Assembly (NCBI GenBank): GCA_038087875.1
Contig: CM075990.1
Coordinates: 9,798,001-9,862,000, forward strand
Source of the DNA: Malacoraja senta
Taxonomy: Eukaryota
Direction of reading: 5' to 3'
Length of the DNA: 64,000 bases
Shown here: positions 1,662 through 64,000 of the stretch, piece by piece
Layout of the letters: each line of letters opens with the position of its first letter
Position numbering within the stretch: the stretch's first letter is position 1
Notes under the pieces: generated by a model
What the model was told of the DNA's origin: nothing
What the model saw: the letters and a program-made list of their open reading frames with translations, nothing else
The model's database searches: none
Made by a program: the position numbers and the translations under genes

Positions 1662-2103
1662 GTGATAGGAGCAGAATTAGGCCAATCAGCCCATCAAGTC
1701 TACTCCGCCATTCAATCATGGCTGATCTATCTCTTCCTCCTAACCCCATTCTCCTGCCTTCATCCCATAGCCCTTGACACCCGTAATCAATAATCTATCT
1801 ATCTCTGCCTTAAAAATATCCATTGACTTGGCCTCCACAACCTTCTGTGGCAAAGAATTCCACAAATTCACCACCCTCTGACTAAAGAAATTCAGTTCAA
1901 TTTAGTTTATTGCCACGTGAAACGCTTTTTATTGCGTGCTAACCAGTCAGTGGAAAGACAATACATCAGTCCATTTACAGTGCACAGAGAAGGGAATCCT
2001 CCTCTTCTCTTTCCTAAAGCAACGTCCTTTAATTTTGAGGCTGTGACCTCTGGTCCTAGACTCTCCCACTAGTGGAAACATCCTCTCCACGTCCACTCTT
2101 ATC
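1662..2103 (-). mobile_element. CR1 (HER1-type) LINE 3' fragment, interrupted by a short Rex1-type 3'-end fragment (~1893-1990)
   Basis: Peptide remnant RMFPLVGESRTRGHSLKIKG. The 3' UTR resembles that at 14400-14700. Confidence 0.8.
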
Positions 2104-2175
2104 ACTATTCGCCCATTCCTTCTCTCCAGAGATGCCGCTGATTTATTCCAGCACGTTGTGTCTGTGCCTCCATCG

Positions 2176-2203
2176 TTGTTGATGTTGTTGTTGTTGTTGT
2201 TGC
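2176..2203. repeat. (TTG)n microsatellite
   Basis: ttgttgatgttgttgttgttgttgttg. Confidence 0.9.
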
Positions 2204-2204
2204 T

Positions 2205-2570
2205 GTGAGGTGACCGCCGCCTCTCTCTCCCTCCCTCACGACCGCCCGCGCAGTCCGTCCCAAAGATCTGTCCGCTCGCGAGAGGCGGGCGCCGCGCTGC
2301 GGGCCAACGGCCGCCACGTCTCGCGATGCTTACCCCCGCCGGTCCTGGCCATCGCATTCGCACCGTCGCTGCGGGCGGACGAGCCGGCGGAGCGCGTCCA
2401 TCTTATCAGGTGAATACCTCAACGATCCGCTCGGTGACGGCGTGGTTCAGTATTGAGTAGCGTCAGGTGTCCGGAGCGCGGGGGGGGGGGGGGGGGACAG
2501 GGACGGACTGTCAAAGGCTGCGATCTGTGGCGACGGCAGGTATTGACCCTTGACCTGGCCGGAGGAGGCA
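2205..2570 (+). promoter_or_regulatory. CpG island; putative USP54 promoter and non-coding first exon (candidate donor CAG|GTGAAT, GT at 2410)
   Basis: Dense CpG/GC-rich non-repeat stretch in an AT-rich window, upstream of and on the same strand as the USP54 coding exons. Followed by a pyrimidine-rich stretch. The link to USP54 is inferred. Confidence 0.6.
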
Positions 2571-2589
2571 GTGACCAAGTGGGCAGCAA

Positions 2590-3470
2590 CACCTCCCACC
2601 CTCAGCTACTCCTCCCTCAGCACCCTCCATCCGCCCCCCATCTTGCACCCACCCTACCCGTACAAACTCTGCTATCCCACCCTCTCAATTCCCCTCGTAT
2701 CCCATCAAATTCCCCCAAACCTTATTCCCCAAATCTCGCCATCTCCCTAACTCAGCCATCCTTCCCAACTGCTTCCCACCTTTCCCATTCCCCTTCCCAC
2801 TTACTGCCCAATGTTTCTCCCTCCACCTCTCATTCCCTTGTACCAGTTTCCCCCTTCTCCTCCTCTGTTCTTTCCATGCCATCCACCCACTGCCCCAGCC
2901 GCATCTGTTCCTCACTTGGTCAGTATCCAACCTTTCTCTCCCCCCCCCCCCCATCTTCACTCCATTCCACTCCCCTCTCCATGCCCCCACTTCTTTACCC
3001 ACGAACTGTATAGGTCCTCTGCTGCACTTGCAACCCCAACCCATTCCTCCCCAGCCCCTGCTGGCTCTTTGACCCCTTCCGCACCCCGCCCTCGTCTGCC
3101 GAACCGACCCCTTCGTCCCCCTCCCTCTTGCCCGACCAACCCATTCAACATCCCCGCCCGTCCAACTGATCCTTTCATCTGTCCCCCGATTGACTGACCC
3201 ATTTCTTCCCCGCTGTTCCCTGACCCCTTTCTTCCCCGCCTGCCCTCTGAACTCTCCCCCCTCCTCGCTGGCCCCCTGACCCCTTCCTGCCCAAGCCTGC
3301 CTCGATCATTTTCTCTCCCACCCCCTGGACCCCGACCGCTTCCTCCTCTCACACGTCACCTGCATCCCATGCCCGCTTGACCCCTCCCAACCACGCATAC
3401 CTGGCTCCCCTGACTGCTCGACCCTCCCTGCCATCCTCTGCCCAGCTTGATCCCACGCCCCCATCCTTAA
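2590..3470. repeat. C/T-rich low-complexity tract
   Basis: Strong C-skew. The Pro/Ser- and Gly-rich ORFs here are compositional artefacts. Confidence 0.8.
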
Positions 3471-4420
3471 ACAGGTATATTGATAGAACAGATTTAAAGG
3501 TATATGGGTAAAATGCAGCATATGGGATAGTGTGGATGGGTATCAGACAGCATGGACAAATTGAGTCGAACTGCCTGTTTCTACTCCATCCAGCCCATTC
3601 CTCCCCAAGCTCCACCTCTTCATATTCGTATTGTGTGATTCGCAGAAAGTATTACATTGTTTTGACAGTTTTTCTTCTTTAGTACTTGAATGTTCATGTT
3701 TAATTTGGTCCATACTAAAGGAAGACACAAACAAAAGTAATAAGCTGATCATGAAGTTATGAGGAGGGGAGGATGCACAAACAAATGATATTTAAAAAGG
3801 GACTAACTTTTTATTGTTGTACAAATGATTGGAGACCTGCTGCTAATGTTTAAGTGGTTTTCTAGGCTTCTCTGAGACAATCTTAATGCTTTAATTTATG
3901 GTGCTGACCTTCAACAGTACAGCATTTCCAAGCTGCATCTCCCCAGATGAAGATTTTAATTGTATATATTGGGCTGAATGTGACATGAGGCTTTCACCAA
4001 ATATCAAAAGTGGTGTTGAAGAGTTCGCAGAGAGTATTGGCTTTATTTTTTACTGTTTGAAATTGAATGCCATATCGTTTGCAATTAATGTAATCTCTTG
4101 GATACCAGTGGTAATCTAGACTTTTTTTTAACCCTGTTGACCTGCCTTTAATTTTCTCTCTGATTCCAAAATTTCAGTCCCTTAAATCCTAACCACAATT
4201 AATTTGTGTTTGGAATTATTTTGAGTGCTTCCTCCTTTGCCTCTCTTCTCTCATTCCAAACTCTTGTATTTCATTCTTTCTATTCTGCTCATGTACTTTT
4301 CTGCTGTAGCCCTGAACGTAACCACCTTTAAATGGAAACCAATTCAGTACCCAACCCCCTACCTTACTGTAAAATACTTAAGTTCTCCTTTGATTCACTC
4401 ACACAAGCAATCAGTTCTGG

Positions 4421-4575
4421 GACAGGCAGCATCTCTGGAGAGAAGGAATGGGTGACGTTTCGGGTCGAGACCCTTATTTAGACCCATTCCTTCTCTCCAG
4501 AGATGCTGCCTGTCCTGCTGAGTTACTCCAGCATTTTGTGTCTATCTTTGATTTAAACCAGCATCTGCAGTTCTT
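4421..4575. mobile_element. Short Penelope-derived fold-back element with hammerhead remnant
   Basis: gacaggcagcatctctggagagaaggaatgggt is inverted as acccattccttctctccagagatgctgcctgtc. The same sequence recurs many times in the window. Confidence 0.75.
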
Positions 4576-4934
4576 TACTACACATCAGTTCCTACCTATG
4601 CCTTGCCTTACATCGTTTGGGATATACGAAGCAAGTTTGGTTCAAGACTGGCTCAAATACTAGACTGACTGGAGTATTTAATTGTACTCTTTTCCATCAT
4701 TTCATCTTCACATGGTCTATCTCTGACTCTTCCATTCTTAAACCTTCATCTCAATTTCTGGGGAGAGGTTATTACTAATTATTGTTAGTCAATTGACTCC
4801 ACAGCTTGACTGTTTTGATGACTCTACTCCATAAGTTGTTTTCCTATCTTTTTCACGTTTGTTTTTGGAATTCACTCTTCCACCAGACCTTCCAAAATGC
4901 ATTTCTTGTCTTCATCGAAGGACTCCACCCCATT

Positions 4935-5520
4935 GCGCTTGATGAGGTTTCCAAAAATCTATGAAATGTCTGTTCCATTTCACGTATTTGACTGATGAAG
5001 ATAAGGCAATGAATGTTGTATACATGGATTTTAGTATGGCTTTTGATAAAGTCCCTCATGGTAGGCTGATCCAGATGATTAAGATGCACGGGATTCATGT
5101 TGACTTAGTCATATAGATTCAGAACTGGCATATTCATAAAAGTCAGAGGGTTGTGGTGATAGAAAATATCGTACCTCTATTTAAGAAGGGCTGCAAGGAA
5201 AAGCCTGGGAACTATAGGCCAGTGAGCATAACATCTGTGGTCGGAAAGTTACTGGATAATATTCTGAGGGATAAATATATATGTGTTTAGATAGACAAGG
5301 GCTGATTAAGGATTGTGAGCACGGTTTTGTACGTGGGAGATCGTGTCTCTCAAATCTGATGGAGTCTTTTTAAGATGACCAAAAGGGCCGATGAGGGTGC
5401 GTACATGGACAGGATAGGTTTGGAAGGATATGGGCCAAATGCAGGCAGGTGTGACTAGTGTAGATGGTTGGTCGGCATGGCAAGTTGTGTTGAAGGGCCT
5501 GTTTCCAAACTGCATGACTC
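4935..5520 (+). mobile_element. Decayed, rearranged CR1 RT fragments and 3' tail
   Basis: Remnants of YMDFS.AFDKVPHGRL and PGNYRPVS motifs. Confidence 0.7.
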
Positions 5521-13300: not shown

Positions 13301-14499
13301 AGTTCCTCTCTTTGGAAAGAATATTGGAAGTGGTATGCACCACAAATTGATGCCTGGGTCAGCTTCTCTTATCAAAATTGTACTTAGGTATTTATGAATA
13401 ATACAATGAAGATTTATTAAGGCAAATTGTAAAAACTTTGACATGAAATGGGTAGGGTTTAATTTAACATGGAGTAGTGTGAGATAATGCATTTTTTGAG
13501 CAGACAAGGAATACAAAAGTGAAGTGGAAATATTGCGACCTCATTCACCGAGTACTGTGTTAAAAATGTAGCCATCTTTTTGTGTATTTTGTAAATTAAA
13601 GACTAAATGTAGACGGAGCAACAAGTTCGTGATAATATTTTACAAGCCGATACCTAGATCAGAGAGTTCTGTTCACTTTTGGGAGTCCTGCTATGGAGGG
13701 GGCATTAAAGTGGAATTGATGAGGATGCCATCAAGGGTGATAAACTATGCTATTGCAAGATACTGAATACTGCAATTATTTCTAGTTATAAAAGGATTTG
13801 ATAGTTTTAAAATGATAACTTTTGATGGGGCGAGTTGGAAAAAACTACTCAGCGAGTTAGCGATGAAGAGTTAGCAATTTAAATTGCCGTTGAAGGAGAA
13901 AATATTTTTCATTGGTACCACACGGAGGAGGAAATTGGTGTTTTGAAGAGGAAGTTTATATATTGCTTTATGCAAGAGCAATTCCGCAAAAAATAAATTG
14001 GGATTATTGTTGCAGCATTAAAATCTGCAACAAATGATTTATTGGCATTTAGCTAATGCAGTAATATAACCTTCAGGAATAATTTTCATTGAAAGACAAA
14101 TGAAAACAGTACAAGGTTGCATTGATTCTGAACAAACGTTCACTTCTGTAAATGTAATTTGCTGTGGATTAGCATGTGAAGGAACCAAAGTAAAAAGATA
14201 ATCTGGAATAATTTGAAACATATTTCTGTAAATTAATGAGAATTATGATTTGGTGCAAATTTGCTGCTGCAAGATTATGAATGTCAATTGGTCGGAAGAT
14301 GGCATTCTTTGTAATTATGAAAGATAGCATCTATATGTAATCAGTTGGGTAAATTTGACCTGAGTTTTCCAATTTTACATAGAAACATAGAAACATAGAA
14401 AATAGGTGCAGGAGTAGGCCATTCGGCCCTTCGAGCCTGCACCGCCATTCAATATGATCATGGCTGATCATCCAACTCAGTATCCTGTACCTGCTTTCT

Positions 14500-17400
14500 C
14501 TCCATACCCCCTGATCCCTTTAGCCACAAGGGCCACATCTAACTCCCTCTTAAATATAGCCAATGAACTGGCCTCAACTACCTTCTGTGGCAGAGAATTC
14601 CAGAAATTCACCACTCTGTGTGAAAAATGTTTTCCTCATCTCGGTCCTAAAAGATTTTCCCCTTATCCTTAAACTGTGACCCCTTGTTCTGGACTTCCCC
14701 AACATCGGGAACAATCTTCCTGCATCTAGCCTGTCCAACCCCTTTAGAATTTTGTACGTTTCTATAAGATCCCCCCTCAATCTTCTAAATTCTAGCGAGT
14801 ACAAACCGAGTCTATCCAGTCTTTCTTCATATGAAAGTCCTGACATCCCAGGAATCAGTCTGGTGATCCTTCTCTGTACTCCCTCTATGTCAAGAATGTC
14901 TTTCCTCAGATTACGAGACCAAAACTGTACGCAATACTCCAGGTGTGGTCTCACCAAGACCCTGTACAACTGCAGTAGAACCTCCCTGCTCCTATACTCA
15001 AATCCTTTTGCTATGAATGCTAACATACCATTCGCCTTCTTCACTGCCTGCTGCACCTGCATGCCTACTTTTAATGACTGGTGTACCATGACACCTAGGT
15101 CTCGTTGCATCTCCCCTTTTCCTAATCGGCCACCATTCAGATAATAGTCTACTTTCCTGTTTTTGCCACCAAAGTGGATAACCTCACATTTATCCACATT
15201 ATACTGCATCTGCCATGCATTTGCCCACTCACCCAGCCTATCAAAGTCACCTTGCAGCCTCCAAGCATCCTCCTCACAGCTAACACTGCCCCCCAGCTTC
15301 GTGTCATCCTCAAACTTGGAGATGTTGCATTCAATTCCCTCGTCCAAATCATTAATATATACCGTAAATAGCTGGGGTCCCAGCACTGAGCCTTGCGGTA
15401 CCCCACTAGTCACTGCCTGCCATTGTGAAAAGGACCCGTTTACTCCTACTCTTTGCTTCCTGTCTGCCAGCCAGTTCTCTATCCACATCAATACTGAACC
15501 CCCAATACCGTGTGCTTTAAGTTTGTATACTAATCTCTTATGTGGGACCTTGTCAAAAGCCTTCTGAAAGTCCAGATATAACACCAGTCCAGACTGGTTC
15601 TCCCTTATCCACTCTACTAGTTACATCCTCAAAAAATTCTATAAGATTCGTCAGACATGATTTACCTTTCATAAATCCATGCTGACTTTGTCCAATGATT
15701 TCACCACTTTCCAAATGTGCTGCTATCCCATCTTTAATAACTGATTCTAGCAGTTTCCCCACTACCGACGTTAGACTAACTGGTCTGTAATTCCCCGTTT
15801 TCTCTCCCTCCCTTTTTAAAAAGTGGGGTTACATTAGCTACCCTCCAATCCTCAGGAACTACACCAGAATCTAAAGAGTTTTGAAAAATTATCACTAATG
15901 CATCCACTATTTCGGTGGCTACTTCCTTAAGTACTCTGGGATGCAGCCTATCTGGCCCTGGGGATTTATCGGCCTTTAATCCATTCAATTTACCTAACAC
16001 CACTTCCCGGCTAACCTGGATTTCACTCAGTTCCTCCATCTCATTTGACCCCCGGTCCCCTGCTATTTCCGGCAGATTATTTATGTCTTCCTTAGTGAAG
16101 ACAGAACCAAAGTAGTTATTCAATTGGTCTGCCATGTCCTTGTTCCCCATGATCAATTCACCTGTTTCTGACTGCAAGGGACCTACATTTGTTTTAACTA
16201 ATCTTTTTCTCTTCACATATCTATAAAAGCTTTTGCAGTCAGTTTTTATGTTCCCTGCCAGTTTTCTTTCATAATCTATTTTCCCTTTCCTAATTAAGCC
16301 CTTTGTCCTCCTCTGCTGGACTCTGATTTTCTCCCAGTCCTCTGGTAGGCTGCTTTTTCTGGCTAATTTGTACACTTCATCTTTTGTTTTGATACTATCC
16401 CTGATTTCCCTTGTTATCCACGGATGCACTACCTTCCCTGATTTATTTTTTTGCCAAACTGGGATGAACAATTGTTGTAGTTCATCCATGCAGTCTTTAA
16501 ATGCCTTCCATTGCATATCTACCGTCAATCCATTAAGAATCAATTGCCAGTCTATCTTCGCCAATTCACTTCTCATATCCTCAAAGTTACCTTTCTTTAA
16601 GTTCAGGACCCTTGTTTCTGAATTAACAATGTCACTCTCCATCCTAATGAAGAACTCAACCATATTATGGTCATTCTTGCCCAAGGGGTCATGCACAACA
16701 AGACTGCTAACTAACCCTTCCTCATTACTCAATACCCAATCTAGAATAGCCTGCTCTCTCGTTGGTTCCTCTACATGTTGGTTTAGAAAACTATCCCGCA
16801 TACATTCCAAGAAATCCTCTTCCTCAGCACCCTTGCCAATTTGATTCACCCAATCTATATGTAGATTGAAGTCACCCATTATAACTGTTTTACCTTTGTT
16901 GCATGCATTTCTAATTTCCAGTTTGATGCCATCCCCAACTCCACTACTACTGTTAGGTGGCCTGTACACAACTCCCACTAGCGTTTTCTGCCGCTTAGTG
17001 TTTCGCAGCTCTACCCATATCGATTCCACATCCTCCAAGCTAATGTCCTTCCTTTCTATTGCGTTAATCTGCTCTCTAACCAGCAACGCTACCCCACCTC
17101 CTTTCCCTTTCTGTCTATCCCTCCTGAATATTGAATATCCCTGGATGTTCAGCTTCCAGCCTTGGTTACCCTGGAGCCATGTCTCCGTGATCCCAACTAT
17201 ATCATATTCATTAATAGCTATCTGCACATTCAACTCATCCACCTTATTACGAATGCTCCTTGCATTGAGACACAAAGCCTTCAGGCTTGTTTTTACAACA
17301 CTCTTACCCCTTATACAATTATGTTGAAAAGTGGCCCTTTTTGATTTTTGCCCTGGATTTGTCTGCCTGCCACTTTTACTTTTCACCTTGCTACCTATTG

Positions 17401-17518
17401 CTTCTACCCTCATTTTACACCCCTCTGTCTCTACGCTCACACATTTAAGAAACCCTTTCCCTTTAACTCCATCCTCAACTATCCCATTCGACACCCCACC
17501 CCCCTTATTCAGTTTAAA
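14500..17518 (-). pseudogene. CR1 ORF2 (APE endonuclease plus reverse transcriptase), disrupted
   Basis: NARS, ITETW, GDFN, PGPD, YLDFQKAFDKV and VPQGSVLGP motifs. Frameshifts at ~15800, ~15590 and ~14615. The FADD motif reads FEDD. Confidence 0.92.
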
Positions 17519-18435
17519 ACCACCCGTGTAGCAGTGGCAAACCTGCCTGCCATAATGCTGGTCCCCCACCTGTTAAGATGCAATCCATCCCTTTTGTACA
17601 GTTCCCTTTTACTCCAAAACAGATCCCAGTGATCTAAGAATCTAAATCCCTGCCCCGTGCACCAGTTCCTCAGCCACACATTCAGGTCCCGTATCTCCCT
17701 GTTCCTGCTCTCGCCAGCACGAGGAACTGGAAGCAAACCGGAGATAACAACCCTGGAGGTCCTGCTTTTCAGCATTTTTCCGAGCTCTCTAAAGTCACAC
17801 TGCAGAATATTCATCCCCTTCTTTCCGACATCGTTTGTGCCGACATGCACTACCACTTCTGGCTGTTCACCTTCGCCCTTGAGGATTTTCTGCACTCTGT
17901 CCGTGACATCCTGGATCCTGGCACCAGGAAGGCAGCACACCATCCTCGAATCCCGTCTGTTGCCGCAGAAACCCCTGTCCGTACCTCTCACAATGGAGTC
18001 CCCCACAACAATGGCGTTGCCTGACTTTGGCCTTTTTGGTTTTGGCTCAACAGCCCTATTCGCATCGCAAGCCATTCTGCCGCTCAATGTTAAAACGTCT
18101 TCTGTCCCGAAAGCTTCTAAGTGGGCGAACCTGTTCACAAGAGGTACAACACACGGGGACGTTTGCATTCCATGCTTCCCTCCCTTTCTCACTGTCTCCC
18201 ACCTTCTCTCTTCCAGTACCTTAGGGGTAACAATATTACTGTAGGACTTGTCGAGGAGCGACTCCGTTTCTCGGACAAACCTGAGGTCATCCACTTGCTT
18301 CTCCAGTTCCCCAACACGGTCCTTCAGGAGCTGTACCTGGATGCACTTGTCACATTTGTAGCAGCCAGAGGCACCAGCAGTGTCCTTGACCTCCCACATA
18401 CTGCAAGCATCACACTGAATCAGCTTGCCTGACAT
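17509..18435 (-). CDS. CR1 ORF1 protein: zinc finger/leucine zipper plus SGNH esterase-like domain
   Basis: Intact ORF from MSGKLIQCDAC...CDKC, then heptad leucines, IVVGDS, HVGTND and DGLHL blocks. Confidence 0.88.
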   Translation of the reverse strand: MSGKLIQCDACSMWEVKDTAGASGCYKCDKCIQVQLLKDRVGELEKQVDDLRFVRETESLLDKSYSNIVTPKVLEERRWETVRKGGKHGMQTSPCVVPLVNRFAHLEAFGTEDVLTLSGRMACDANRAVEPKPKRPKSGNAIVVGDSIVRGTDRGFCGNRRDSRMVCCLPGARIQDVTDRVQKILKGEGEQPEVVVHVGTNDVGKKGMNILQCDFRELGKMLKSRTSRVVISGLLPVPRAGESRNREIRDLNVWLRNWCTGQGFRFLDHWDLFWSKRELYKRDGLHLNRWGTSIMAGRFATATRVVLN

Positions 18436-18601
18436 CTCCTTCTTTCGTCTCTCCCTCTGCAGTGTTTTGTGTAGCCTCCTCGCCGAAGACTCTCGAGCCA
18501 AAGACTCACACTTTTCTCACAGGGCCACTCCCTAAGAGCAGTCTTGCTTATATTGACTGATAAATTGCCTAATTTACCAATTTACAATCCAAATTCCTCA
18601 G

Positions 18602-19017
18602 TTTTCAACTATTTTCCCCGCTTTGACTCACTTCTCTCCTCCCTCTTGGGCTAGAGCCAATCAGTGTTTTCACTTGCTAATCTTCTCCTGCTGTTGCTTC
18701 CAAGTCTACAGCAGCTCTGAGTAAAGTCTGCCTGTGCTTTGCCTCTCCTTTTCAACTGTTTTCCCCCCTCTGACTCACTTCTCTCCTCCCTCTTGGGCTA
18801 GAGCCAATCAGTGTTTTCTCTTGCTAATCTTCTCCTGCTGTTGCTTCCAAATCTACAACAGCTCTGAGTAAAGTCTGCCTGTGCTTTGCCTCTCCGTTTC
18901 AACTGTTTTCACCCCTCTGACTCACTTCTCTCCTCCCTCTTGGGCTAGAGCCAATCAGTGTTTTCTCTTGCTAATCTTCTCCTGCTGTTGCTTCCAAATC
19001 TACAGCAGCTCTGAGTA
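18602..19017. repeat. 147-bp tandem repeat, ~2.8 copies, forming the CR1 5' UTR
   Basis: gactcacttctctcctccctcttgggctagagccaatcag starts at 18625, 18772 and 18919. Confidence 0.92.
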
Positions 19018-37779: not shown

Positions 37780-38930
37780 TTCTTTTACTCTCAAACCAAT
37801 AACATCTAGTTTTTGATTCCCCAACCATGGGACAAAAACTGTGTGTATTCACCCTGTATATGTCCATCTATACAAACACCCCACAGTCTCCTACGCTCCA
37901 AGAAATAAAGGTCTAGCCTGCCCAACCTTTCCCTAAGATTCAGTCCCTCGGGTTCTGGCAACATCCTCGTTTATCTTTTCTACACTCTGTTCATCTCAAT
38001 GGCATCTGTCCTATGGTGGCAGGGTGGCCAAAACTAAACATAATTCTCCAAGTGCGGCCTTATCAAAATCTTGTATAACTATAGCATAATGTTCCAACTT
38101 ATATACTCAATGTTCTTACTAATGAAGGCCAGTTGTCAAAAGCCTTCTTCACCGCTCGGTCGACTGTGTCACTACTAGCTGGAAACTATGCACATGCTCC
38201 TCGGTCTCATCGTTCTACAACACTCCCCAAGGCCCTACTATTCACTGTGAAAGTTCTACCCTGGTTTGACTTACCATAATACAACAGCTTGATGAATTAA
38301 ATGCAGTTTCCCAATCCTTGGGCCTCTTCCCCAGCTGATTGTGCGTTCACCCTCTCTAATCCCCTCATGATTTTATAAACCTGGATAAAATCACTCCTTA
38401 GCTCCCTGAACTCCAAGGAATAAAGTCCTCACCTGCCCAACCTCACCCTATAGCTCAGGTTCTCGGATCCTGACAACACCTTTGTAAATCTTCTGTGCAC
38501 TCTTTCCAGCTTAATGACATCTTTCCTGCAATAGGGTGACCAAAACTGAACACAGTACTCCAAGTATGGCTTCACCTCCATCTTTTAAAACTGTAACATA
38601 ACATACCAACTCCTATACTTGATACCATGACTGATGAAGGCCAGTGTACCAAAATCCTTATTAACCACCCTATCTACTTGCAATGCCACCTTCAGGGAAC
38701 CATGTACTAGATTCCTCAACACTCCCCCAGGACCCTACCATTTACTGTGAAGGTCCCTGTTTGGACTTCCCAAAATGCAACCCTTCACACTTACCTGCAT
38801 TGAACTCCATTAGCCATTCTTCAGCCCACTTGCCCGCCTGATCAAGATCCCATTCTAATTCGTGATACCACCAATTTTAGTGTCACATGCAAACTTACAA
38901 ATCATGTCTTGTACATTCTCATCTAAGTGA
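37780..38930 (-). mobile_element. Two decayed CR1 3' fragments
   Basis: Repeated remnants of the HLEYCVQFWSP region and 3' UTR. Confidence 0.7.
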
Positions 38931-39307
38931 TAGATGCATTTTGTGAAAGAAGAAGTCCAGGCAACAGAAGATGTGCTTTTGTGCTGTTTTCCTGAAGTAT
39001 CCAAGTATCCTCCCCTTTCTTAACTGGAATACTGTATAAGATCATTCATATTTACGAAGACCAGATGCAACCCTTGTGCAAATATTAGCATAGATTTAAC
39101 TGGCAGTGCAAACAGTCATCTTACATTTTGGCAAATCAATTGAGAATTCAGAGAAAGTAGTTCTGATGAAAGCAAGCAGACACCTCAAGCTATGCATTTG
39201 TTTTTAATTGAAACATGTTTTTGTTTTACAATATTTTACATTAATGAGAATAATATTTAAAATGTCATTGAATAACTTAAGTTATCTCCATAAATCCTCC
39301 TTCATAG

Positions 39308-44499: not shown

Positions 44500-46090
44500 A
44501 AGGGCACAAAGTCAGCGGGTCAGGGAGCATCTCTGAAGAACGTGGAAAAATGATGTTTTGGGCCGATATCCTTCAGTTTGATTGTAGGGGGGAAGAAGAA
44601 AGCTGGAAAAGGGGAGAGGCAAGACAAAGCATTACAGTTAATAGGTTGACACAGGCGAGGGGGCAGATGGTTGAAAAAAGTTCAGAGATAAGAACAATAG
44701 GTGTGAGACAGGTTTGAAGTGTGGCGGACTGTTAAGCCTGGGGAAGGAAAGTAGTAAGTGTGGTTATGGATATGGAGAGGAGAAATAGATGGGCGTACAG
44801 GTGGGTCCCAGGGGAGGGAATGGGGAAAGTAGAAAAGAGGGGAGATGGGGAAGAACACAGGGGGAGGAGTTAGTTAGAGGTGACCTAAAACTGTAGAATT
44901 TAACGTTCATACCGTTTGGTTGTAATAAGAAGAAGCGGAATATCCAGTCAGAATATGAGGTGCTGTTCCTCCAGTTTGTGTGTGGCCTCACTCTGGCAAT
45001 AGCGGACAGAAGGTCAGTGCGGGAATGGGAAGGAGAATTAAAATGGTTAACGACCAGGAGATCCAGTAGGCCTTGGTGGACCGAGTGCAAGTGTTCTGCA
45101 AAATGGTCGCCAATGTACAGGAGGCCACATCGGGAACACCGGATGCAGTAGATTAGGTTCACATGTACCTCTATCTCATCTGGAAGAACTGCTGGGGTCC
45201 CTCGATGGAGGTGAAAGAGGAGATATGGGGACAGGTGTTACATCTCCTGTGGTTGCAGGGGAAAGTACCTGTGGAGGGGATATTTTAGGTGGGAAGGGAT
45301 GAGTGAACCAAGGTGTTGACGAGAGAGCAGTTTCTGCGGAAGGCAGAGAGAGGTGGAGATGGGAAGATGTGACGGAAATGTCGGTATATGATGTGTTGGA
45401 TAGAAACATAGAAACATAGAAAATAGGTGCACGAGTAGGCCATTCGGCCCTTCGAGTCTGCCCCGCCATTCAATATGATCATGGCTGATCATCCAACTCA
45501 GTATCCCGTACCTGCCTTCTCTCCATACCCCCTGATCCCCTTAGCCACAAGGGCCACATCTAACTCCCTCTTAAATATAGCCAATGAACTGGCCTCAACT
45601 ACCTTCTGTGGCAGAGAATTCCAGAGATTCACCACTCTCTGTGTGAAAAATGTTTTTCTCATCTCGGTCTTAAAATACTTCCCCCTTATCCTTAAACTGT
45701 GACCCCTTGTTCTGGACTTCCCCAACATCGGGAACAATCTTCCTGCATCTAGCCTGTCCAACCCCTTAAGATGCAGAGGCTGGTGGGGTAAAAGATAAAG
45801 ACACTCTATTCTTGTTCCGTCTGGGGGAAGGCAGAGCAAGAGCAGACCTACTGGACACAGGAGATGCGGGTGAGGGATCCATCTATGACAGAAGGGGGAA
45901 AGCCAAGTTTATTAGAGAATGGGAACATCTTGGATTTCTGAGAACAGAAAGTCTCATCTTGGAGCAGATGTGGTGGAGACGTAGGAATTAAGAGTCGGGA
46001 ATAGTGTCTTTGCAAGTGACAGGGTGGGAGGAAGTGTATACCAGATAACTGTGAGTCGACAAGTTTAAAGTAGACGTCAGAATGTCTACA
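44500..46090 (-). mobile_element. Decayed Penelope-like element interrupted by a CR1 insertion
   Basis: NLIYCIRCSRCGLLYIG remnant. Collinear with 5865-7000 on both sides of 45401-45770. Confidence 0.8.
45401..45770 (-). mobile_element. Young CR1 3' fragment, same subfamily as 14377-19017
   Basis: Near-identical to 14380-14747, with an intact C-terminus ...QRVVNLWNSLPQ...GTGY. Confidence 0.92.
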
Positions 46091-51809: not shown

Positions 51810-52460
51810 CTCTTACAATCGGCCCAACATGCCCTATTTACACTACTCCCACCTGCTTGCATTTGGCCAATATAGCTGTAAATCTATCCTATCCATATAC
51901 CTATCCAATGTTTTTAAACGTTGTGATAGTACCTGCCTCAATTATCTCCTCCAGCAGCTCGTTGGTTAGTTGGTTCGAACCCGAAACGCTACCCATTCCT
52001 TTTTTTCCAGAGATGCTGCCTGACCCGCTGAGTTACTCCAACATTTTATGTCAATCCACAATACTCTAAATGTGGCCACATCAATATCTTGTACAACTGT
52101 AACATGACCTCCCAACTGCTATACTCAGTACTGATGAAGGTCAATGTGTATAGCATCTTGGCAATCCTATCTACCTGTGACGCCACTTTCAAGGAACTAT
52201 TTACCAACATGCCTAGATCCCTCTACTCTACAACACTTGCCAGAACCCTGCCACTCACAGTGTAGGTCCTGCCCTGGTCAGACTTCCAAAAATGCAACAC
52301 CTTGTACTTCTCTGTATTAAACTCCATCAACCATTCCTCAGCCCACCTGCCCAAATGATCACAATACTGCTGCAATTTTGGACAACCATCTTCACTATCT
52401 GCAATACCACCCACTTGAGTGTCACCTGCAAACTTACTAATCATGCCTTGTACATTTACA
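51810..52460 (-). mobile_element. Decayed CR1 fragment with a nested short Penelope-derived piece (~51975-52050)
   Basis: ISKFAGDTQVGG...WAEEWLMEFN RT remnant. Confidence 0.75.
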
Positions 52461-54749
52461 TAAAGGTATCTGATATAACGTCTGTAAGATAGCCTATGCA
52501 CGCCTTTTCAATATAATCGCACTTAAGTTTTGCATTTATGTTTTGCTATTCAAGCGCGTGACTCCACTTGGGCAAAAAATGCAAAATGTTTATAAGTAAT
52601 CTGTTAATTTCCATTCAATAATCTATATCATACAAATTGTATTGTCACTAACCATTCCAATGAAATAAAGAAAAAATATTTTTACTGTCTTATTATTTTT
52701 CCACCTGTAGCTATATACTGTTTTACAATTTTGAATAGGAATTTGAGGGGGTAAAGCAAGTTCACTTCATTTATTCAATATCAGTTTTCTGACAAACTAG
52801 TCTCTGGAATGTCCTTGACTGTATCTGGAAGCACAGTACTTTGTGTTCTTAATTTTGATGCTATGATAATAATTGTTACTTAGCTTCATAAAGTTTATAG
52901 AACTATGCCAACAAAATCTTAACACCAGTTAGTAAGGTAAAATTCTCCTCGTTCAAGAAGGCCGTTTCATTTATATTTTGAAGTTCTGACTTATTTGAGT
53001 CAGGAACTTGACAACGTTTCAGAAATAGCTTGTGTTCATTTGCCATTGAACATTTTGTTTCAATTCACGACTCGTTCAGGAAAATGTTCTGTAGTCTTGT
53101 GTTATTTGTATTAAATTTGTATTGCAAGATATTTAATTTATATGTGAATGTTTGTTGGTAGGAGGGACAAAACGGTTGTTTTGTTATTAGTATTTTCCTG
53201 TAAATTAATGAAGATGGTAAGCTGGAACAAATGTTCGAATTGGTGAATGCCATAGATGGCACCAGTATTGAACTCAAAAGTTGGCGTAAAATAGGGACGT
53301 ACAACACGAAAGCAGGTCCTGCGTCCCACTCCTCAGTGCCGAGCAGGTTTTGTAACTGAGCTGTATGTGCCAATGATATCTGAATAACCAATACAGTAGG
53401 TAGAAATTCAATTAATCGTAATTATTTGATTTTTAATTTTTCAGTGGCTTTCAACAATCCATATTTTCAAAAGTGTCATGATTTCTTTGAGCTGCAAATG
53501 TGAAGTGCAGCTTAAATCTTATTTCTGTAAGCATTTGCTGTGAAAAGATATTTTTGTGCTACAATATCTTCTGAAACTCTCGGCTTTACGATGTTCTCCT
53601 ATCATTTTTCTTTCTTTTCTGTTGAGAAATACTACCAGGCAAATTAAGTGTATTTTACATGATGTGAGTGAATGTTAATGGTTGGATTCAAAGCTGTTCT
53701 CTAGTCAGTACTTGAATCTCAATTGTTTTGAAATGCAATCCGATAAAACCGGAAAGACACAAAGTGCTGGAGTAACTCAGCGGGTCAGGCAGCATCTCTG
53801 GAGAACATGGGGAGACAAATTTTCAGGTGGGGATGTGCCTGACTCACTAAGTTAATCCAGCACTTTGTATCTTTCTTCATAAACCAGCATCTGGAGTTTC
53901 TTGTCTCTCCATATTCAGCTTGACTAGGCTTTCCTGACTCATTGTTCTGTGTGCCAACTTTATGGGAGTAGCACCAGGAATTATCACATAACTAATGGCA
54001 GTTTCAAGGCCTGGCCAATTTTTTTCATTAAAATGTGAAGAATTATAACCATGAACAGAATGAGTTGATATCCTTTGAGTCACCTGATTAATTCTATTGA
54101 TTTTGGCAACAAATACTTGCACATAGGTGTGGCACACACAAAGTAAGCACCATAGAATTGCGCAAATAATTGAGGCTTTGCTCAATTATAGAAGGTCATG
54201 ATCAACATTGCGAAACCTCAACCCATGCTCTTTAAGTTTGCGTCACCTGATGCTCACAAATAAATGACATAATTTCAACCACTAATTTGTGTATCAGCCA
54301 TTGTTTTGCTGTGATATTTAACAGGGACCTTTGCCAGTTGATCTGAATCGTAGCTTCCGGTTAAAGATATGAAATCCGGTCTTGTAATCTGTTCTGTTTA
54401 GTTGTTTCAGGTTTTAAAACTGGTGCTAGCCGTTTGGATCAAAGTTTCCGTTTAAGCATGATCAGAATGTGCAAAATATAGATGTAATTTTGCTTCAGAT
54501 TTCAATAGGAGAAATTAGACCGCAAATAAAAACAAGTAGCAGTGACTCTGAAGACAGATGCAAGGGTATGATTGAGCTGGAGAGAGGGCAGAGGAGACTC
54601 ACCAGGGTCAAAAACAGCATTTTCTGCTGAAAATGCTTGATAAACTCAGCAGGTCAAGCCAGTACTTGGCCCATAGCCTCCTGTGCCTTGGTGAATCAAG
54701 TACTCGTCTAAAGAAATAATTTAAATACATTATTTATGAGATTAAATCC

Positions 54750-56322
54750 AGTTTACCCAGCGGCCTTGACCCACTGCAGTTCGCCTATCGCCACAACATG
54801 TCCACGGACGATGCCACCGCACTAGCCTTATACTCATCCCTGGAACACTTGGATGAGAGAGACACTTACAGTACGTCAGACTCCTATTCATAGACTACAG
54901 CTCTACCTTGAACACCATTATACCATCCAAACTTATCACCAAATTTGCGGGACTTGGTGTCAGCACTCATTTCTGCAACTGGATCCTCGGCGTCCTGACC
55001 AACAGACCCCAATCAGTGAGGTTAGGGGATAAATCCCCCTCTACGATAATCCTCAACACCGTTGCTCCGCAAGGTTGCGTTCTCAGCCTCCTCTTTACTC
55101 CTTGTACACCCACAACTGTACAGCCATGTACAAATCTAATTCAATTTTCAAATTCGCAGATGACACCACCATTGTGGGCCGAATATCAAATAAAGATGAG
55201 GTAGAATACAGGAAGGAGATCGAGAACCTCGTGTCCTGGTGCCGAGACAACAACCTTTCTCTCAATGTCAGCAAAACAAAGGAGATGATGATCGACCGCC
55301 CCGACGCAGGAGTTTCGATCGCCCCAAGCGGGAGCTTCCACCGCCAGCTGCAGGAGCTTTGAGCTCCCCGACGGATGGTTCGACTGCCCCACCGTGGGAG
55401 AAATAAAGAGGAAGAAGATTGAACTGTTTTGCCTTTCATCATAGTGAGGAATCCACTGTGATGGATGTTTATGTTAACTTTTATGTATGTGTGTCTTGTT
55501 GCTTTTTTTTGTATGGCTGTATGGTAATTCGCATATCACTGTACATTAATTGGTACATGTGACAATAAAAGACCTTTGAAACCTTTGAAACCTTTTGACT
55601 TCAGGAACCCCAGTTTGCATTGACAGCGCCTAAGTAGAGATGGTTGAAAACTTCAAATTCCCAGGAGTCCATATCACCAACAACTTCTCCTGGACCACCC
55701 GTATTAAAGCAACCACCAAGAAAGCATACCAATGCCTCTACTTCCTTCAAAGGCTTAGGAAGTTCAGCATGTCCTCTACAACTCTCACCAACTTCTACAG
55801 GTGCACCATAGAAAACATTTTATCAGGATCAGCTTGGTTTCAGAACAGCCCCATCCAAAACTGCAAGAATTTGCAGTGAATTGTGGATGCAGCCTCGACC
55901 ATCACACAAGCCAACCACCTTTCCTTTGACTCCATTTATACCTCACGCTGCCTCAGCAAGGCCAGCAGTATAATCAAGGAGGAGTTGCACCCTGGCCACT
56001 CCCTCTTCTACCCTCTCCCATCAGGCAAAATATATAGGTGTGAAAGTGCACATCTCCAGATTCAGGGATGGTTTCTTCCCAGTTATTATCTGGCAACTGA
56101 ATCATCCTATCACAACCAGAAAGCAGTCCTGAACTACTATCTACCTCATTGCTGACCCTCGGACTTTACCTTGCACTAAATATTATTCCCTTATCATGTA
56201 TCTATCTATACATTGTAAATGGCTCGATTGTAATCATGTATTGTCTTTCCACTGACTAGATAGCAAGCAACAAAACCTTTTCAATGTACCCCGGTACACG
56301 TGACAATAAACTAAACTAAACT
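54750..56322 (+). mobile_element. Rex1-like LINE 3' half, frameshifted, with a nested insertion at ~55297-55595
   Basis: [24 protein letters not shown] and KFADDTT motifs, and a (ctaaa)n tail. Confidence 0.88.
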
Positions 56323-57726: not shown

Positions 57727-59000
57727 ATCGACAAAAACCTGGACCCACTGCAGTTCGCTTACCGTCACAACAGATCAACGGTGGATGCGATCTCGCTGGC
57801 CCTCCACTCCGCTCTGGACCACTTGGACAACAAAAACTCATATGTCAGGCTGTTATTCATCGATTACAGCTCGGCATTTAATACAATCATCCCCTCCAAG
57901 CTGGTTACCAAACTCGCAGAACTGAGTCTCTGCACATCCCTCTGCAATTGGATCCTCGACTTCCTCATTCACAGACCACAGTCTGTTCGTATTGGTGGAA
58001 ATGTGTCAGCCTCAATAACAATCAGCACGGGAGCACCTCAAGGCTGCGTGCTCAGCCCCCTGCTGTACTCACTCTATACTCATGATTGCGTAGCCGGACA
58101 TAGTGCGAACTCCATCATCAAGTTCGCTGACGACACCACTGTCGTGGGACGTATCACTGATGGGGATGAGTCAGAGTATAGAAGAGAGATCGAGCAACTG
58201 TCCATATGGTGCCAGCACAATAACCTGGCCCTCAACACCAGCAAAACCAAGGAACTGATTGTGGACTTTGGAAGGAGTAGGATGGGGACCCACAGTCCCG
58301 TTTATATCAACGGGTCGATGGTTGAAAGGGTCAAGAGCTTCAAATTCCTGGGCGTGCACATCTCTGAAGATCTTTCCTGGTCCGAGAACACTGATGCCAT
58401 TATTAAGAAAGCACATCAGCGCCTCTACTTCCTGAGACGATTACGGAGAGTCAGTTTGTCAAGGAGGACTCTCTCTAACTTCTACAGGTGCACAGTAGAG
58501 AGCATGCTGACCGGTTGCATCGTGGCTTGGTTCGGCAACTTGAGCGCCCTGGAGAGGAAAAGACTACAAAAAGTAGTAAACACTGCCCAGTCCATCATCG
58601 GCTCTGACCTCCCTTCCATCGAGGGGATCTATCACAGTCGCTGCCTCAAAAAGGCTGGCAGTATCATCAAGGACCCACACCATCCTGGCCACACACTCAT
58701 CTCCCTACTACCTTCAGGTAGAAGGTACAGGAGCCTGAAGACTGTAACGACCAGGTTCAGGAATAGCTACTTCCCCACAGCCATCAGGCTATTAAACCTG
58801 GCTCGGACAAAACACTGAACTTTATTAGCCAATTAACTGTTATTTGCACTTTACCAGTATATTGATTCATGTGTGTATATATTTATAGAATGCCTTGTAG
58901 TCAATGCCTACTATGTTCTGTTGTGCTGAAGCAAAGCAAGAATTTCATTGTCCTATCAGGGACACATGACAATAAACTCACTTGACTTGACTTGACTTGA
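57727..59000 (+). mobile_element. Rex1/Babar LINE, 5'-truncated, with an uninterrupted RT frame to 58818
   Basis: [30 protein letters not shown] and KFADDTT motifs, and a (cttga)4 tail. Confidence 0.92.
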
Positions 59001-61442: not shown

Positions 61443-64000
61443 CAAATTTAACCCACAAATTTTGAACGAAAGATCATGCCAGGAATATCTTATTAAACAG
61501 CCAGGAATATCTTATTAAACAGATTCAAATATTTTTTGAGGTAAATGACAACCCTGACACACCTACTTCTCTTATGTGGGAAACGTTTAAAGCGTTTGTT
61601 CGAGGTGCATTAATTTCTGCCCAAGTATTTTATAATAAAGAGAACAGGATTAAACAACAAACATTGGAAAGGGAAATCAAGCAACTAGATATAGAAAATG
61701 CGAGAATGCCATCTATATTAAAACATAATAAAATTGCTGTGTTGAAATATAAATTAAACAAAATGTATTCAGAACAAGTAATAAAACTTTATCAAAAAAC
61801 CAAACAATTACATTTTGAGTTTGGAGACAAACCACAAAAACTATTAGCACGTCAGTTACGAAAAATGGAAGGGGAAAAAATAATTCATAAAATTAGAACA
61901 GAGACAGGAGAATTATCAAAAATGCCCAAGGATATAAACGAGAGATTTCTCCAATACTATCATAATCTTTATTCAACTAAAACTGTAGTACAACCAGAAG
62001 GAATAGCAGATTTTTTACTAAAATGTAATTTAAAAGGTTTAGACTCAAACGATAGAGAATTATTAGAAGGGGAGATTACGATAAAGGATATTGAAGAGTC
62101 TATTGGCTCTTTAAAAAATGGTAAAGCAGTAGGACCAGATGGTTTAGGCTCTGAATTCTATAAAATATTTTATTACTTGCTCTCCCCACGTTTACAAAGG
62201 CTGTATGAGCATATCTATACTCAACAGAAACTTCCAGATACTTTAAATGAATCTATAATAACACTTATTCCTAAAGTTGATAAAGATCCGGAAGATCCGG
62301 GATCATATAGAGCAATTGCACTTTTAAATACAGATCAGAAAATATTAACTAAAATACTAGCGCATAGATTAAGTACAGTGATGAATAAATTAATACACCC
62401 TGACCAAACAGGCTTTATTCAGAAACGGTACTCATATTATAATCTAAGAAGATTATTTAATATTATATATTCTAAGAGAATTATTAATGAAGATCTAGCA
62501 ATAATCTCACTTGACGCTGAAAAAGCTTTTGATCAGGTTGAATGGTCCTATTTATTTTCGGTGATGGAAAATATGCAACTAGGGGAGAAATTCTGCACAT
62601 GGATAAAACTGTTATATACAAACCCTACGGCTAGAATATTAACAAACCAAAGGTTGTCATCTAAATTCAGCCTATCTAGAGGTTGTAGACAAGGATGCCC
62701 GTTATCTCCATTATTATTTGCGCATGCTATTGAGCCACTCGCAGAAAGAGTTAGGGGTCATCCGGAAATACATGGGTATAACACAAAGGATACAGTGAAT
62801 AAAATTTCTCTATACGCAGATGATGTACTAATTTACATTACTAAACCAGAAATTAGTATTCCAAACTTATTAAAGTTAATAACCCAATTTGGTTCACTCT
62901 CAGGATACAGAATAAATTGGAATAAAAGTGAAATTATGCCAATAAGGGAACACAACAAACAGATAATACAACAATTTCCATTTAAAATAGTAAACGAAAA
63001 ATTCAAATACCTAGGCATTTACGTAACTAAGATATATACATCATTATTTAAAGCAAATTTCCCCCCATTACTGAACAAACTACATAAGAATATTCAATAT
63101 TGGAAAACACTTCCTATCTCAATGGTTGGCAAAATTAATGCCATAAAAATGATTTTTTTACCGCAAATATACCCTTTTCAGACAATTCCGATATATTTGT
63201 CAAAAAACTTTAAAAAAAAATTGGATTCCATTGTTAATGATTTTATCTGGGATTATAAGAATCATAGGATAAACAAAAGACATTTGTGTAAATCAAAAAT
63301 AAATGGAGGCTTGGTTTTACCAAACTTTCTGTTTTATTTTTGGGCAGTTAATATTAAAAATATGAATTTCTGGTTGGAAGAAATAGATCAACAACCAGAT
63401 TGGTTAAAAATGGAAAAGGAAGATTGTTTACCTTTTGATATCGGCTCGATATTATTTGCTACGTCTAAATTAAACAAAAAAAATTATATGGAAAACCCTT
63501 TAATATTTAGTGCTATACAAATTTGGAAACAATTAAAAAAGACATTAAAATTAGATAACTTATCACTTTTTCTTCCAATTGTGAATAACCCTTTGTTTAA
63601 GCCCTCATGGTTGGACAGGGGTTTTACACAATGGAAGAATTATGGAATTAAAAATATGGGACAACTTTACAAGGAAGGCACTTTTCTTACATTTCAGGAG
63701 TTGCAACAGACTTATGGACTTCGAGGAAATGATTTTTTCAGATATCTTCAACTCAGAGATTATGTAAAATCGAATACTCAAAATTTTTGAATTAGAAATT
63801 CAGAAATTCTTGATGAATGTTGGAATAAACATCCTAATACAGAAAAATTAATATCTTATATATATAATATTTTATTAGACAGTGACATTCCATCGACGGA
63901 CTTACACAGACAAACATGGGAAAAAGAATTAAATCAAATAATAACGAAAGATACTTGGGAAGAAAGTTTACAACACATACATCAATGTTCATTAAATGCC
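61443..64000 (+). mobile_element. L1-clade LINE ORF2, 5'-truncated, running off the window
   Basis: 738-aa ORF with GPDG, YRAIALLN, SLDAEKAFD, GCRQGCPLSP and YADD motifs. In-frame TGA at 63788-63790, after which the frame stays open. Confidence 0.93.

What the first reader, a model, noticed from the sequence alone, without database searches (positions are those of the whole stretch)
17445..17525. Candidate -1 ribosomal frameshift signal fusing CR1 ORF1 to ORF2
Seen: ORF1 ends GT(T TTA AAC) TGA, giving the heptamer U_UUA_AAC (17518-17512) in the correct phase immediately before the stop. ORF2 is open across it in the -1 frame (G F K L N K G G G...). After a 7-nt spacer come the G-tracts GGGGGG-T-GGGG-N8-GGG...GGG-AAA-GGG. 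Known: U_UUA_AAC is the coronavirus slippery site, and G-quadruplexes can stimulate -1 frameshifting. Inference: this LINE may make a gag-pol-like ORF1-ORF2 fusion, unlike the reinitiation used by L1. The alternative is reinitiation at the in-frame AUG at 17413.
Basis: partly seen in the sequence, partly recalled or inferred. Interest (0 to 1): 0.82.

Follow-up and report, generated by a model that had tools for sequence, protein, structure and literature searches.

The report
Frameshift site in vertebrate CR1 retrotransposons
This jumping gene (a CR1 LINE) ends its first gene with the same seven-letter 'slippery' sequence found in its relatives from sharks to crocodiles, so it likely makes its copying enzyme as retroviruses do, by letting ribosomes slip back one base and fuse its two proteins.

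Summary
Observation confirmed: ORF1 (SGNH esterase) of a CR1 LINE ends U_UUA_AAC-stop (17518-17509, - strand), and the -1 frame runs open into the endonuclease. The heptamer, its phase and the adjacent stop are identical in five ORF1 lineages whose synonymous sites are near saturation (42-65% amino-acid identity; chance about 1e-7). The heptamer is also in 94 of 99 loci examined, and at the junction of 18 published CR1 consensus sequences from sharks, bowfin, coelacanth, frog, lizard and crocodilians. Subfamily E and a metagenome relative have no in-frame AUG before the endonuclease, which argues against AUG reinitiation. More distant ORF1s end in GN or carry KN at that place, matching the other two classic slip sites (protein level only). 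Best reading: programmed -1 frameshifting gives an ORF1-ORF2 fusion (about 0.85; not measured). Not found in 10 literature searches; older CR1 papers were unavailable. A -1 frameshift is already asserted for Dictyostelium TRE5-A. The scan noted this twice before on other DNA. This copy's ORF2 is broken.

The parts
18602..19017 (-). 5' UTR: tandem repeat of 147 bp, 2.8 copies
17509..18435 (-). ORF1, 308 aa from ATG 18435, with C-terminal SGNH esterase; ends ...VVLN then TGA
   Evidence: Lipase_GDSL_2 E=7.8e-12; profile A1 matches PDB 4c1b 'ORF1-encoded protein' at E=2e-44
17512..17518 (-). Slippery heptamer U_UUA_AAC, last two ORF1 codons plus the base before them
   Evidence: conservation
17509..17511 (-). 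ORF1 stop directly after the heptamer (TGA here; TAA or TAG in other lineages)
17494..17504 (-). G-rich patch G6-U-G4, 7 nt after the heptamer; candidate 3' stimulator. G at +10, +11, +12, +14 and +17 from the heptamer end in all six representatives
17411..17413 (-). First in-frame AUG of ORF2 (35 codons after the slip site); not conserved across lineages
15776..17518 (-). ORF2 5' part in the -1 frame: variable linker (about 80 codons), then APE endonuclease; open for 580 codons from the slip site
14489..15828 (-). ORF2 3' part with reverse transcriptase, interrupted by frame changes in this copy
   Evidence: (RVT_1 E=2.8e-21)
14377..14405 (-). 3' tail of 8-bp tandem repeats, no poly(A)

Best explanation
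The site is the conserved ORF1/ORF2 junction of esterase-type CR1 LINEs, and it likely works as a programmed -1 ribosomal frameshift signal that makes ORF2 as an ORF1-ORF2 fusion. Shown: the heptamer, its phase, the adjacent stop, the open -1 frame into the endonuclease, their conservation at synonymous positions, and lineages with no AUG before the endonuclease. Inferred: most ribosomes stop at the end of ORF1; a minority with Leu- and Asn-tRNA on UUA AAC slip back one base to UUU AAA and go on in ORF2. The predicted junction peptide is ...VVLN-LNKGGG, giving a complete ORF1p joined by a 35-110-residue variable linker to endonuclease and reverse transcriptase, at a fixed low ratio as in Gag/Gag-Pol. 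Least certain: the stimulator. No hairpin, pseudoknot-like stem or long-range pairing was found. The candidate is the G-rich patch 7-10 nt downstream, acting with the adjacent stop, either as a protein-binding site (my odds about 0.4), as a two-tier or intermolecular quadruplex (about 0.3), or not at all (about 0.3).
For: (1) Five ORF1 lineages (A = this family, B, C, D in the same genome; L031 from a metagenome record) all end T TTA AAC + stop, at 42-65% amino-acid identity and 21-46% identity at four-fold sites. The eight positions from the heptamer to the first stop base are invariant, while 0 of 9 other invariant Leu columns share a codon. Chance for four further lineages, even granting that L and N are needed: 7e-8. 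(2) 94 of 99 distinct loci keep the heptamer when anchored on upstream protein similarity. (3) Supplement of PMC13343379: 18 CR1-labelled consensus rows from 11 species codes show TTTAAACT at the ORF1/ORF2 junction (read by eye); 8 of 8 rows found through the upstream DGLH block and long enough to show the junction have it. (4) Bird and snake ORF1 proteins end RALN (P0168, P0121). (5) No in-frame AUG before the endonuclease in subfamily E (16 of 16 copies in frame to the first motif at residue 56; first Met at 118 or later, 265-268 in 10) or in L031. (6) Lineages A, C and D join the same ORF2 module through linkers of different length, all in the -1 phase and free of stops; shuffled linkers stay open with p = 0.064, 0.116, 0.013, 0.010, 0.096 for A, B, D, E, L031. 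(7) Among 82 distinct DGxH(L/F/M)-type ORF1 tails, 36 end LN, 10 end GN and 9 have KN at the same place. The residue before LN is almost never one lacking a U-ending codon (1 of 36, expected 21%, p=0.003; 0 of 56 in the set), and before GN it is Q in 9 of 10. [quoted passage not shown] (8) An unbroken copy of lineage B has ORF1 1048-2055 and ORF2 2031-5039 overlapping in -1 (L131).
Against: No frameshifting was measured, and no ribosome-profiling or peptide data were seen. No conventional stimulator: folding z = -0.67, no conserved long-range partner, quadruplex not conserved. Lineages A, B and D have an in-frame AUG before the endonuclease (codons 35, 39, 63), and C has a UAAUG stop-start overlap. 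27 of 82 tails fit none of LN, GN, KN. The GN and KN cases have no DNA behind them. The same motif also appears in the 5' UTR of two dogfish consensus sequences, and two consensus rows lack the G patch. Loci were the best-scoring hits, so they lean to young copies, and within-family identity is not independent evidence.
Confidence: 0.85

Rival explanations
1. ORF2 is made separately by termination-reinitiation after the ORF1 stop, at a nearby AUG or at a non-AUG codon, as recalled for L1 and SART1; the heptamer helps pausing or is a relic.
For: In-frame AUGs before the endonuclease in lineages A, B, D; UAAUG overlap in lineage C and in catshark CR1-1a. AUG-independent reinitiation in human L1 is recalled, not retrieved (searches found no text).
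Against: No AUG before the endonuclease in subfamily E or L031. The Met of lineage C is Val or Ile in related sawfish and stingray consensus rows. Reinitiation does not require an in-phase X_XXY_YYZ word, a fixed -1 phase, or an open frame between stop and AUG.
Confidence: 0.08
2. The conserved word acts on DNA or in transcription: a TATA-like element for an internal ORF2 transcript, an endonuclease or recombination site that swaps ORF1 modules, or a polymerase slippage site.
For: TTTAAA is palindromic and AT-rich. ORF1/linker modules are visibly swapped among lineages A, C, D, E. One consensus begins exactly at the motif, and two carry it in the 5' UTR.
Against: A DNA signal need not keep codon phase or sit right before the stop. 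The module joins seen lie 60-190 nt downstream, not at the heptamer. An internal transcript would still need an AUG, which E lacks. The alternative GN and KN endings fit tRNA-slippage rules and not a TATA box. The homopolymer runs are only three bases.
Confidence: 0.04
3. The terminal Leu-Asn is needed by the esterase protein, and the DNA word is a by-product.
For: L307 and N308 are at least 90% invariant in alignment A1.
Against: Protein need cannot fix the Leu codon, the Asn codon and the base before them. The solved relative 4c1b and 6 of 7 DGLHP-type tails do without it. It leaves AUG-less ORF2s untranslated.
Confidence: 0.03

Closest known systems
Retroviral and LTR-retrotransposon gag-pol -1 frameshift; coronavirus 1a/1b site U_UUA_AAC (PMC5009743, passages)
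   Same: X_XXY_YYZ heptamer in phase at the end of the upstream ORF; polymerase in the -1 frame; same heptamer as IBV.
   Different: Host element is a non-LTR LINE. No hairpin or pseudoknot found 3' of the site; a linear G-rich patch lies there instead. No protease to cut the fusion is evident.
Dictyostelium TRE5-A / TRE3-A non-LTR elements (PMC5911963, figure-legend passage)
   Same: APE-type LINEs stated to require a -1 frameshift for ORF2.
   Different: Another clade and ORF1 type. I saw only the review's statement, with no slip site or measurement. Nothing in that passage concerns CR1 or vertebrates.
G-quadruplex-stimulated -1 frameshifting in synthetic reporters (PMC3919603, passages)
   Same: Same heptamer; optimal spacer 6-8 nt, close to the 7-10 nt seen here.
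   Different: Those constructs have four G3 tracts with short loops (about 7% at best, falling as loops lengthen); CR1 keeps only one or two tracts. PMC5009743 says natural use was not known in 2016.
Arterivirus nsp2 frameshift stimulated by nsp1-beta with poly(C)-binding protein (PMC5009743, passage; the linear C-rich motif about 10 nt downstream is recalled)
   Same: Slip site followed by a short unstructured low-complexity motif at a fixed distance.
   Different: G-rich instead of C-rich; no binding protein identified here.
L1 and SART1 termination-reinitiation (recalled; papers not held)
   Same: Bicistronic LINE RNA; lineage C has a UAAUG overlap.
   Different: They make a separate ORF2p. 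CR1 keeps a slip site and often has no AUG.
ZfL2-1 (L2 clade) esterase ORF1p, PDB 4c1b (PMC3905857, passages)
   Same: Homologous SGNH esterase ORF1.
   Different: DGLHP-type tail without terminal LN, so the signal seems absent from that branch.

Membership tests
CR1 LINE (canonical vertebrate CR1) | ORF2 with APE endonuclease and reverse transcriptase | tested here: met
CR1 LINE (canonical vertebrate CR1) | Esterase-type ORF1 (shared with some L2; PMC13343379) | tested here: met
CR1 LINE (canonical vertebrate CR1) | 3' end of short tandem repeats, no poly(A) (8-bp unit is recalled as typical of CR1) | tested here: met
CR1 LINE (canonical vertebrate CR1) | Placement in the CR1 clade by RT phylogeny | not tested
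   No tree built. The junctions resemble rows labelled CR1 in the PMC13343379 supplement (by eye).
Programmed -1 ribosomal frameshift signal | X_XXY_YYZ heptamer in phase with the upstream ORF | tested here: met
Programmed -1 ribosomal frameshift signal | Downstream ORF open in the -1 frame from the slip site | tested here: met
Programmed -1 ribosomal frameshift signal | Nucleotide conservation beyond protein need | tested here: met
Programmed -1 ribosomal frameshift signal | Stable hairpin or pseudoknot 5-9 nt downstream (canonical retroviral/coronaviral type) | tested here: not met
   pseudoknots were not modelled directly, but no stable stem exists locally
Programmed -1 ribosomal frameshift signal | Measured frameshifting or transframe peptide | not testable with these tools
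   needs reporter, ribosome profiling or mass spectrometry
G-quadruplex-stimulated frameshift | Four G3 tracts with short loops, conserved | tested here: not met
   1 of 6 representatives; two-tier forms predicted in 3 of 6
G-quadruplex-stimulated frameshift | G-rich element at stimulator distance | tested here: met
   run of 5-7 G starts 7-10 nt after the heptamer; G4Hunter score in the top 0.1-1.3% of windows of each element
Termination-reinitiation (L1/SART1 type) | Conserved start codon for ORF2 near the ORF1 stop and before the endonuclease | tested here: not met
   overlap only in lineage C; none in E or L031

The most novel reading that the evidence does not exclude
Esterase-type CR1 LINEs across vertebrates and some invertebrates make their reverse transcriptase as a Gag-Pol-like ORF1-ORF2 fusion by -1 frameshifting. 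Different branches use all three classic slip sites (U_UUA_AAC, G_GGA_AAC, A_AAA_AAC), and shifting is stimulated by a conserved unstructured G-tract: either a natural quadruplex-type stimulator or a site for a host or element protein, a new class of cellular frameshift signal.
Probability: 0.4. Interest if true: 0.88.

Novelty: new variant of a known kind. Interest (0 to 1): 0.76.

Why it matters
CR1 is the dominant retrotransposon of most vertebrate groups (CR1-group elements make up 22-34% of shark and ray genomes per PMC13343379), yet the CR1 papers I could search say nothing on how its ORF2 is translated. The textbook LINE route is reinitiation. A frameshift would mean that ORF2p carries a whole coiled-coil/esterase ORF1p at its N-terminus, at a fixed ratio, which ties the polymerase into the particle as Gag-Pol does. 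It would also mean that CR1 ORF2 annotations starting at the first AUG are truncated. It gives a 40-nt natural signal, testable at once in standard reporters, with an apparently unstructured G-rich stimulator of a kind not known in nature as of the 2016 review.

Tried and rejected
Local RNA structure: MFE -12.9 kcal/mol, z = -0.67. Long-range partner for the G patch: best duplexes lay within or near the shuffled range and at no shared position in 13 elements; row C1_L126 anchored on a neighbouring element and was disregarded. Canonical quadruplex. Splicing: the stop varies among TGA, TAA and TAG, so no acceptor is conserved. Sequencing runs: no RNA holder listed. Four runs whose RNA status is only a guess were laid as contigs: one contig spans the whole 751 nt with 16 listed differences, none in the heptamer; three joints were listed, none with splice-type ends; 90 difference rows were not shown; not used as evidence. 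Public contig scans with alignment A1: metagenomes gave 16 loci, of which only L031 was a CR1 junction; prokaryote genomes gave 4 unrelated or short loci; viral contigs gave none. Longer homologues (20 hits; 11 proteins read) were chimeric gene models with no natural junction. Cluster look-ups named only 3 of 20 clusters, so the hosts of the GN and KN families are unknown and no DNA for them was obtained. The supplement of PMC4316615 showed only flanking DNA in the 2 of 16 passages displayed. Literature: 10 searches and term searches in PMC13343379, PMC3905857, PMC2734521, PMC4120745, PMC4255032, PMC11835228 and PMC5009743 (the last two held only to 300,000 characters) found no statement of CR1 frameshifting. 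Kapitonov and Jurka 2003 was not held. Haas 1997 and the turtle CR1 paper were not seen, and Repbase notes could not be searched; they may mention the overlap.

Full report
What is in the window. The finding lies in a nearly full-length LINE on the - strand (about 14377-19017). It has a 147-bp tandem-repeat 5' UTR and an 8-bp repeat tail, a 308-aa ORF1 with an SGNH esterase, and an ORF2 with APE endonuclease and reverse transcriptase. The closest named ORF1 relatives are from skates, sharks and rays. The family is young and abundant: 40 scored matches at 99-100% among 2619 candidates. ORF1 ends GTT TTA AAC TGA. The heptamer U_UUA_AAC (17518-17512) is in phase, and the -1 frame is open for 580 codons from it into the endonuclease. 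The G tracts and the AUG at 17413 are as described. This copy's ORF2 changes frame three times further down, so the argument rests on the family, not on this copy.

Conservation in the same genome. Searches with divergent ORF1 proteins brought four ORF1 lineages (A = this family, B, C, D) and a subfamily E with D's ORF1 but a different ORF2 start. A metagenome record, L031 (35% identity to this ORF1), gave a fifth lineage. I anchored all 103 candidate loci on protein similarity upstream of the last 18 codons. 97 had TTTAAAC directly before the stop position; without 4 same-place duplicates, 94 of 99, the rest differing by one base. Copies within a family are not independent, so I compared one natural copy per lineage. 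Amino-acid identity of the esterase is 42-65%, and four-fold sites are 21-46% identical, close to saturation. Only 4 of 43 invariant residues, and 0 of 9 invariant Leu, share a codon in all five lineages. Yet the seven heptamer bases and the first stop base are invariant, while the preceding codon is GTT, TCT, GAT, ACT or CAT and the stop is TGA, TAA or TAG. With the elements' own codon usage, the chance of T TTA AAC given a Leu-Asn ending is 0.016 per lineage, or 7e-8 for four further lineages. None of 35 other Leu-Asn pairs in these ORFs is coded that way.

Conservation across vertebrates. The supplement of PMC13343379 lists consensus sequences, of which only the first 400 letters are visible. 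Of 44 rows containing TTTAAACT, 21 are labelled CR1. In 18 of these, from 11 species codes that I read as alligator, crocodile, bearded dragon, bullfrog, coelacanth, bowfin, elephant shark, catshark, dogfish, sawfish and stingray, the word sits at the ORF1/ORF2 junction. One lies inside the endonuclease and two lie in 5' UTRs; one tortoise row labelled Crack also shows the junction form (judged by eye, some rows of low quality, one without an in-frame stop). That search presupposes the word, so I also searched six upstream DGLH-type 9-mers. Nine CR1 rows showed the block; in the 8 that reach the junction, all 8 have the heptamer. At protein level, 56 of 91 first-search homologues end in LN, including coelacanth and turtle, as do swallow and snake ORF1s.

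Alternative slip sites. A profile search gave 150 representatives at 50% clustering; 104 had a tail of 20-45 residues after the DGxH block, 89 of them distinct. Of the 82 of DGxH(L/F/M) type, 36 end LN, 10 end GN, 9 have KN at the same place (mostly followed by about 10 more residues), and 27 fit none. The residue before LN is one without a U-ending codon in only 1 of 36 (expected 21%, p = 0.003). Before GN it is Q in 9 of 10, and before KN always a residue with an A-ending codon. This is what U_UUA_AAC, G_GGA_AAC and A_AAA_AAC would give, three of the four heptamers that PMC5009743 calls most shift-prone. No DNA for the GN and KN families was seen, so this step is inference. The DGLHP-type tails, including the solved ORF1 esterase 4c1b, mostly lack the ending (1 of 7 LN).

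Against reinitiation. The first in-frame AUG is at codon 35 (A), 39 (B), 3 (C, a UAAUG overlap) and 63 (D), but it lies after the first endonuclease motif in L031 and in E. Of 25 loci fetched for E, 4 gave no junction and 1 is cut at it; 17 of the other 20 keep the heptamer. In all 16 copies that are in frame to the motif at residue 56, the first Met is at 118 or later. A, C and D join one ORF2 module through linkers of different lengths, always in the -1 phase. The linkers are free of stops in that frame (shuffle p 0.01-0.12 each), while the other two frames carry stops in 9 of 10 cases. The Met of C corresponds to Val or Ile in sawfish and stingray rows. Non-AUG reinitiation, recalled for L1, is not excluded, but it does not explain the heptamer.

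The stimulator. The 126 nt around the site fold no better than shuffles (z = -0.67), and no conserved long-range partner was found. A run of 5-7 G starts 7-10 nt after the heptamer in all six representatives, where such runs occur in 1-5% of 16-nt windows, and the G4Hunter score there is in the top 0.1-1.3% of each element. G is invariant at +10, +11, +12, +14 and +17. Most published junction rows show the same G4-5 (A/AT/T) G2-4 patch; two do not. RNAfold predicts none for A, B or L031 and two-tier forms for C, D and E, and in PMC3919603 efficiency already falls at a total loop length of 10 nt. So a G-rich element is conserved at stimulator distance, but its mode of action is open.

Comparison with what is known. 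The signal works like a gag-pol or coronavirus site but fails the membership feature of a stable 3' structure. A review states that Dictyostelium TRE5-A and TRE3-A need a -1 frameshift, so frameshifting is not new to LINEs as a claim. Ten searches and term checks in seven papers, including the 2026 survey of vertebrate CR1 (0 hits for frameshift, overlap, slippery or translat), found no report for CR1; older subscription papers were not visible. I read passages only, no paper in full. Two earlier notes of this scan reach the same reading on other DNA; they are not counted as evidence.

Verdict. A real and deeply conserved signal. Programmed -1 frameshifting is the best explanation (0.85), unmeasured; a new variant of a known kind; interest 0.76.

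Noticed in passing
window 17430-17300 (-), L081-L110: Lineages A, C and D share the same ORF2 start module (from ...RETEGCKM) behind different ORF1s and linkers, and D's ORF1 also occurs with a different endonuclease (subfamily E): modular recombination among CR1 lineages at a point downstream of the slip site.
   Followed up: partly
L081-L083, L111-L122 (lineage C): The stop after the heptamer overlaps an in-frame AUG (UAAUG), so this lineage could use both frameshifting and stop-start coupling.
   Followed up: partly
PMC13343379 supplement rows SquAca_CR1-18, SquAca_CR1-3, ScyCan_CR1-1b: Two full-length consensus sequences carry a TTTAAAC-stop-G-rich word in the 5' UTR, and one consensus begins exactly at the motif; possibly relics of an older junction.
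   Followed up: no
P0082, P0085, P0147: Some distant CR1-type ORF1 proteins contain an SH3 domain in front of the esterase (Pfam PF00018/PF14604 for P0082 and P0085) and still end in LN (P0082, P0147).
   Followed up: no
P0015, P0077: Database proteins labelled Pseudomonas aeruginosa and Tanacetum look like vertebrate CR1 sequence, probably contamination.
   Followed up: no
L130 (G000:C14:9686000-9692000): A second copy about 126 kb from the window copy is identical over the 401-nt junction, suggesting a local duplication.
   Followed up: no
window 1746-2099, 4946-5370, 37866-38971, 45510-45770, 52058-52477, 54875-55275, 57829-58416, 61883-62956: Further LINE reverse-transcriptase fragments, 25-74% identical to lineage B ORF2.
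   Followed up: no
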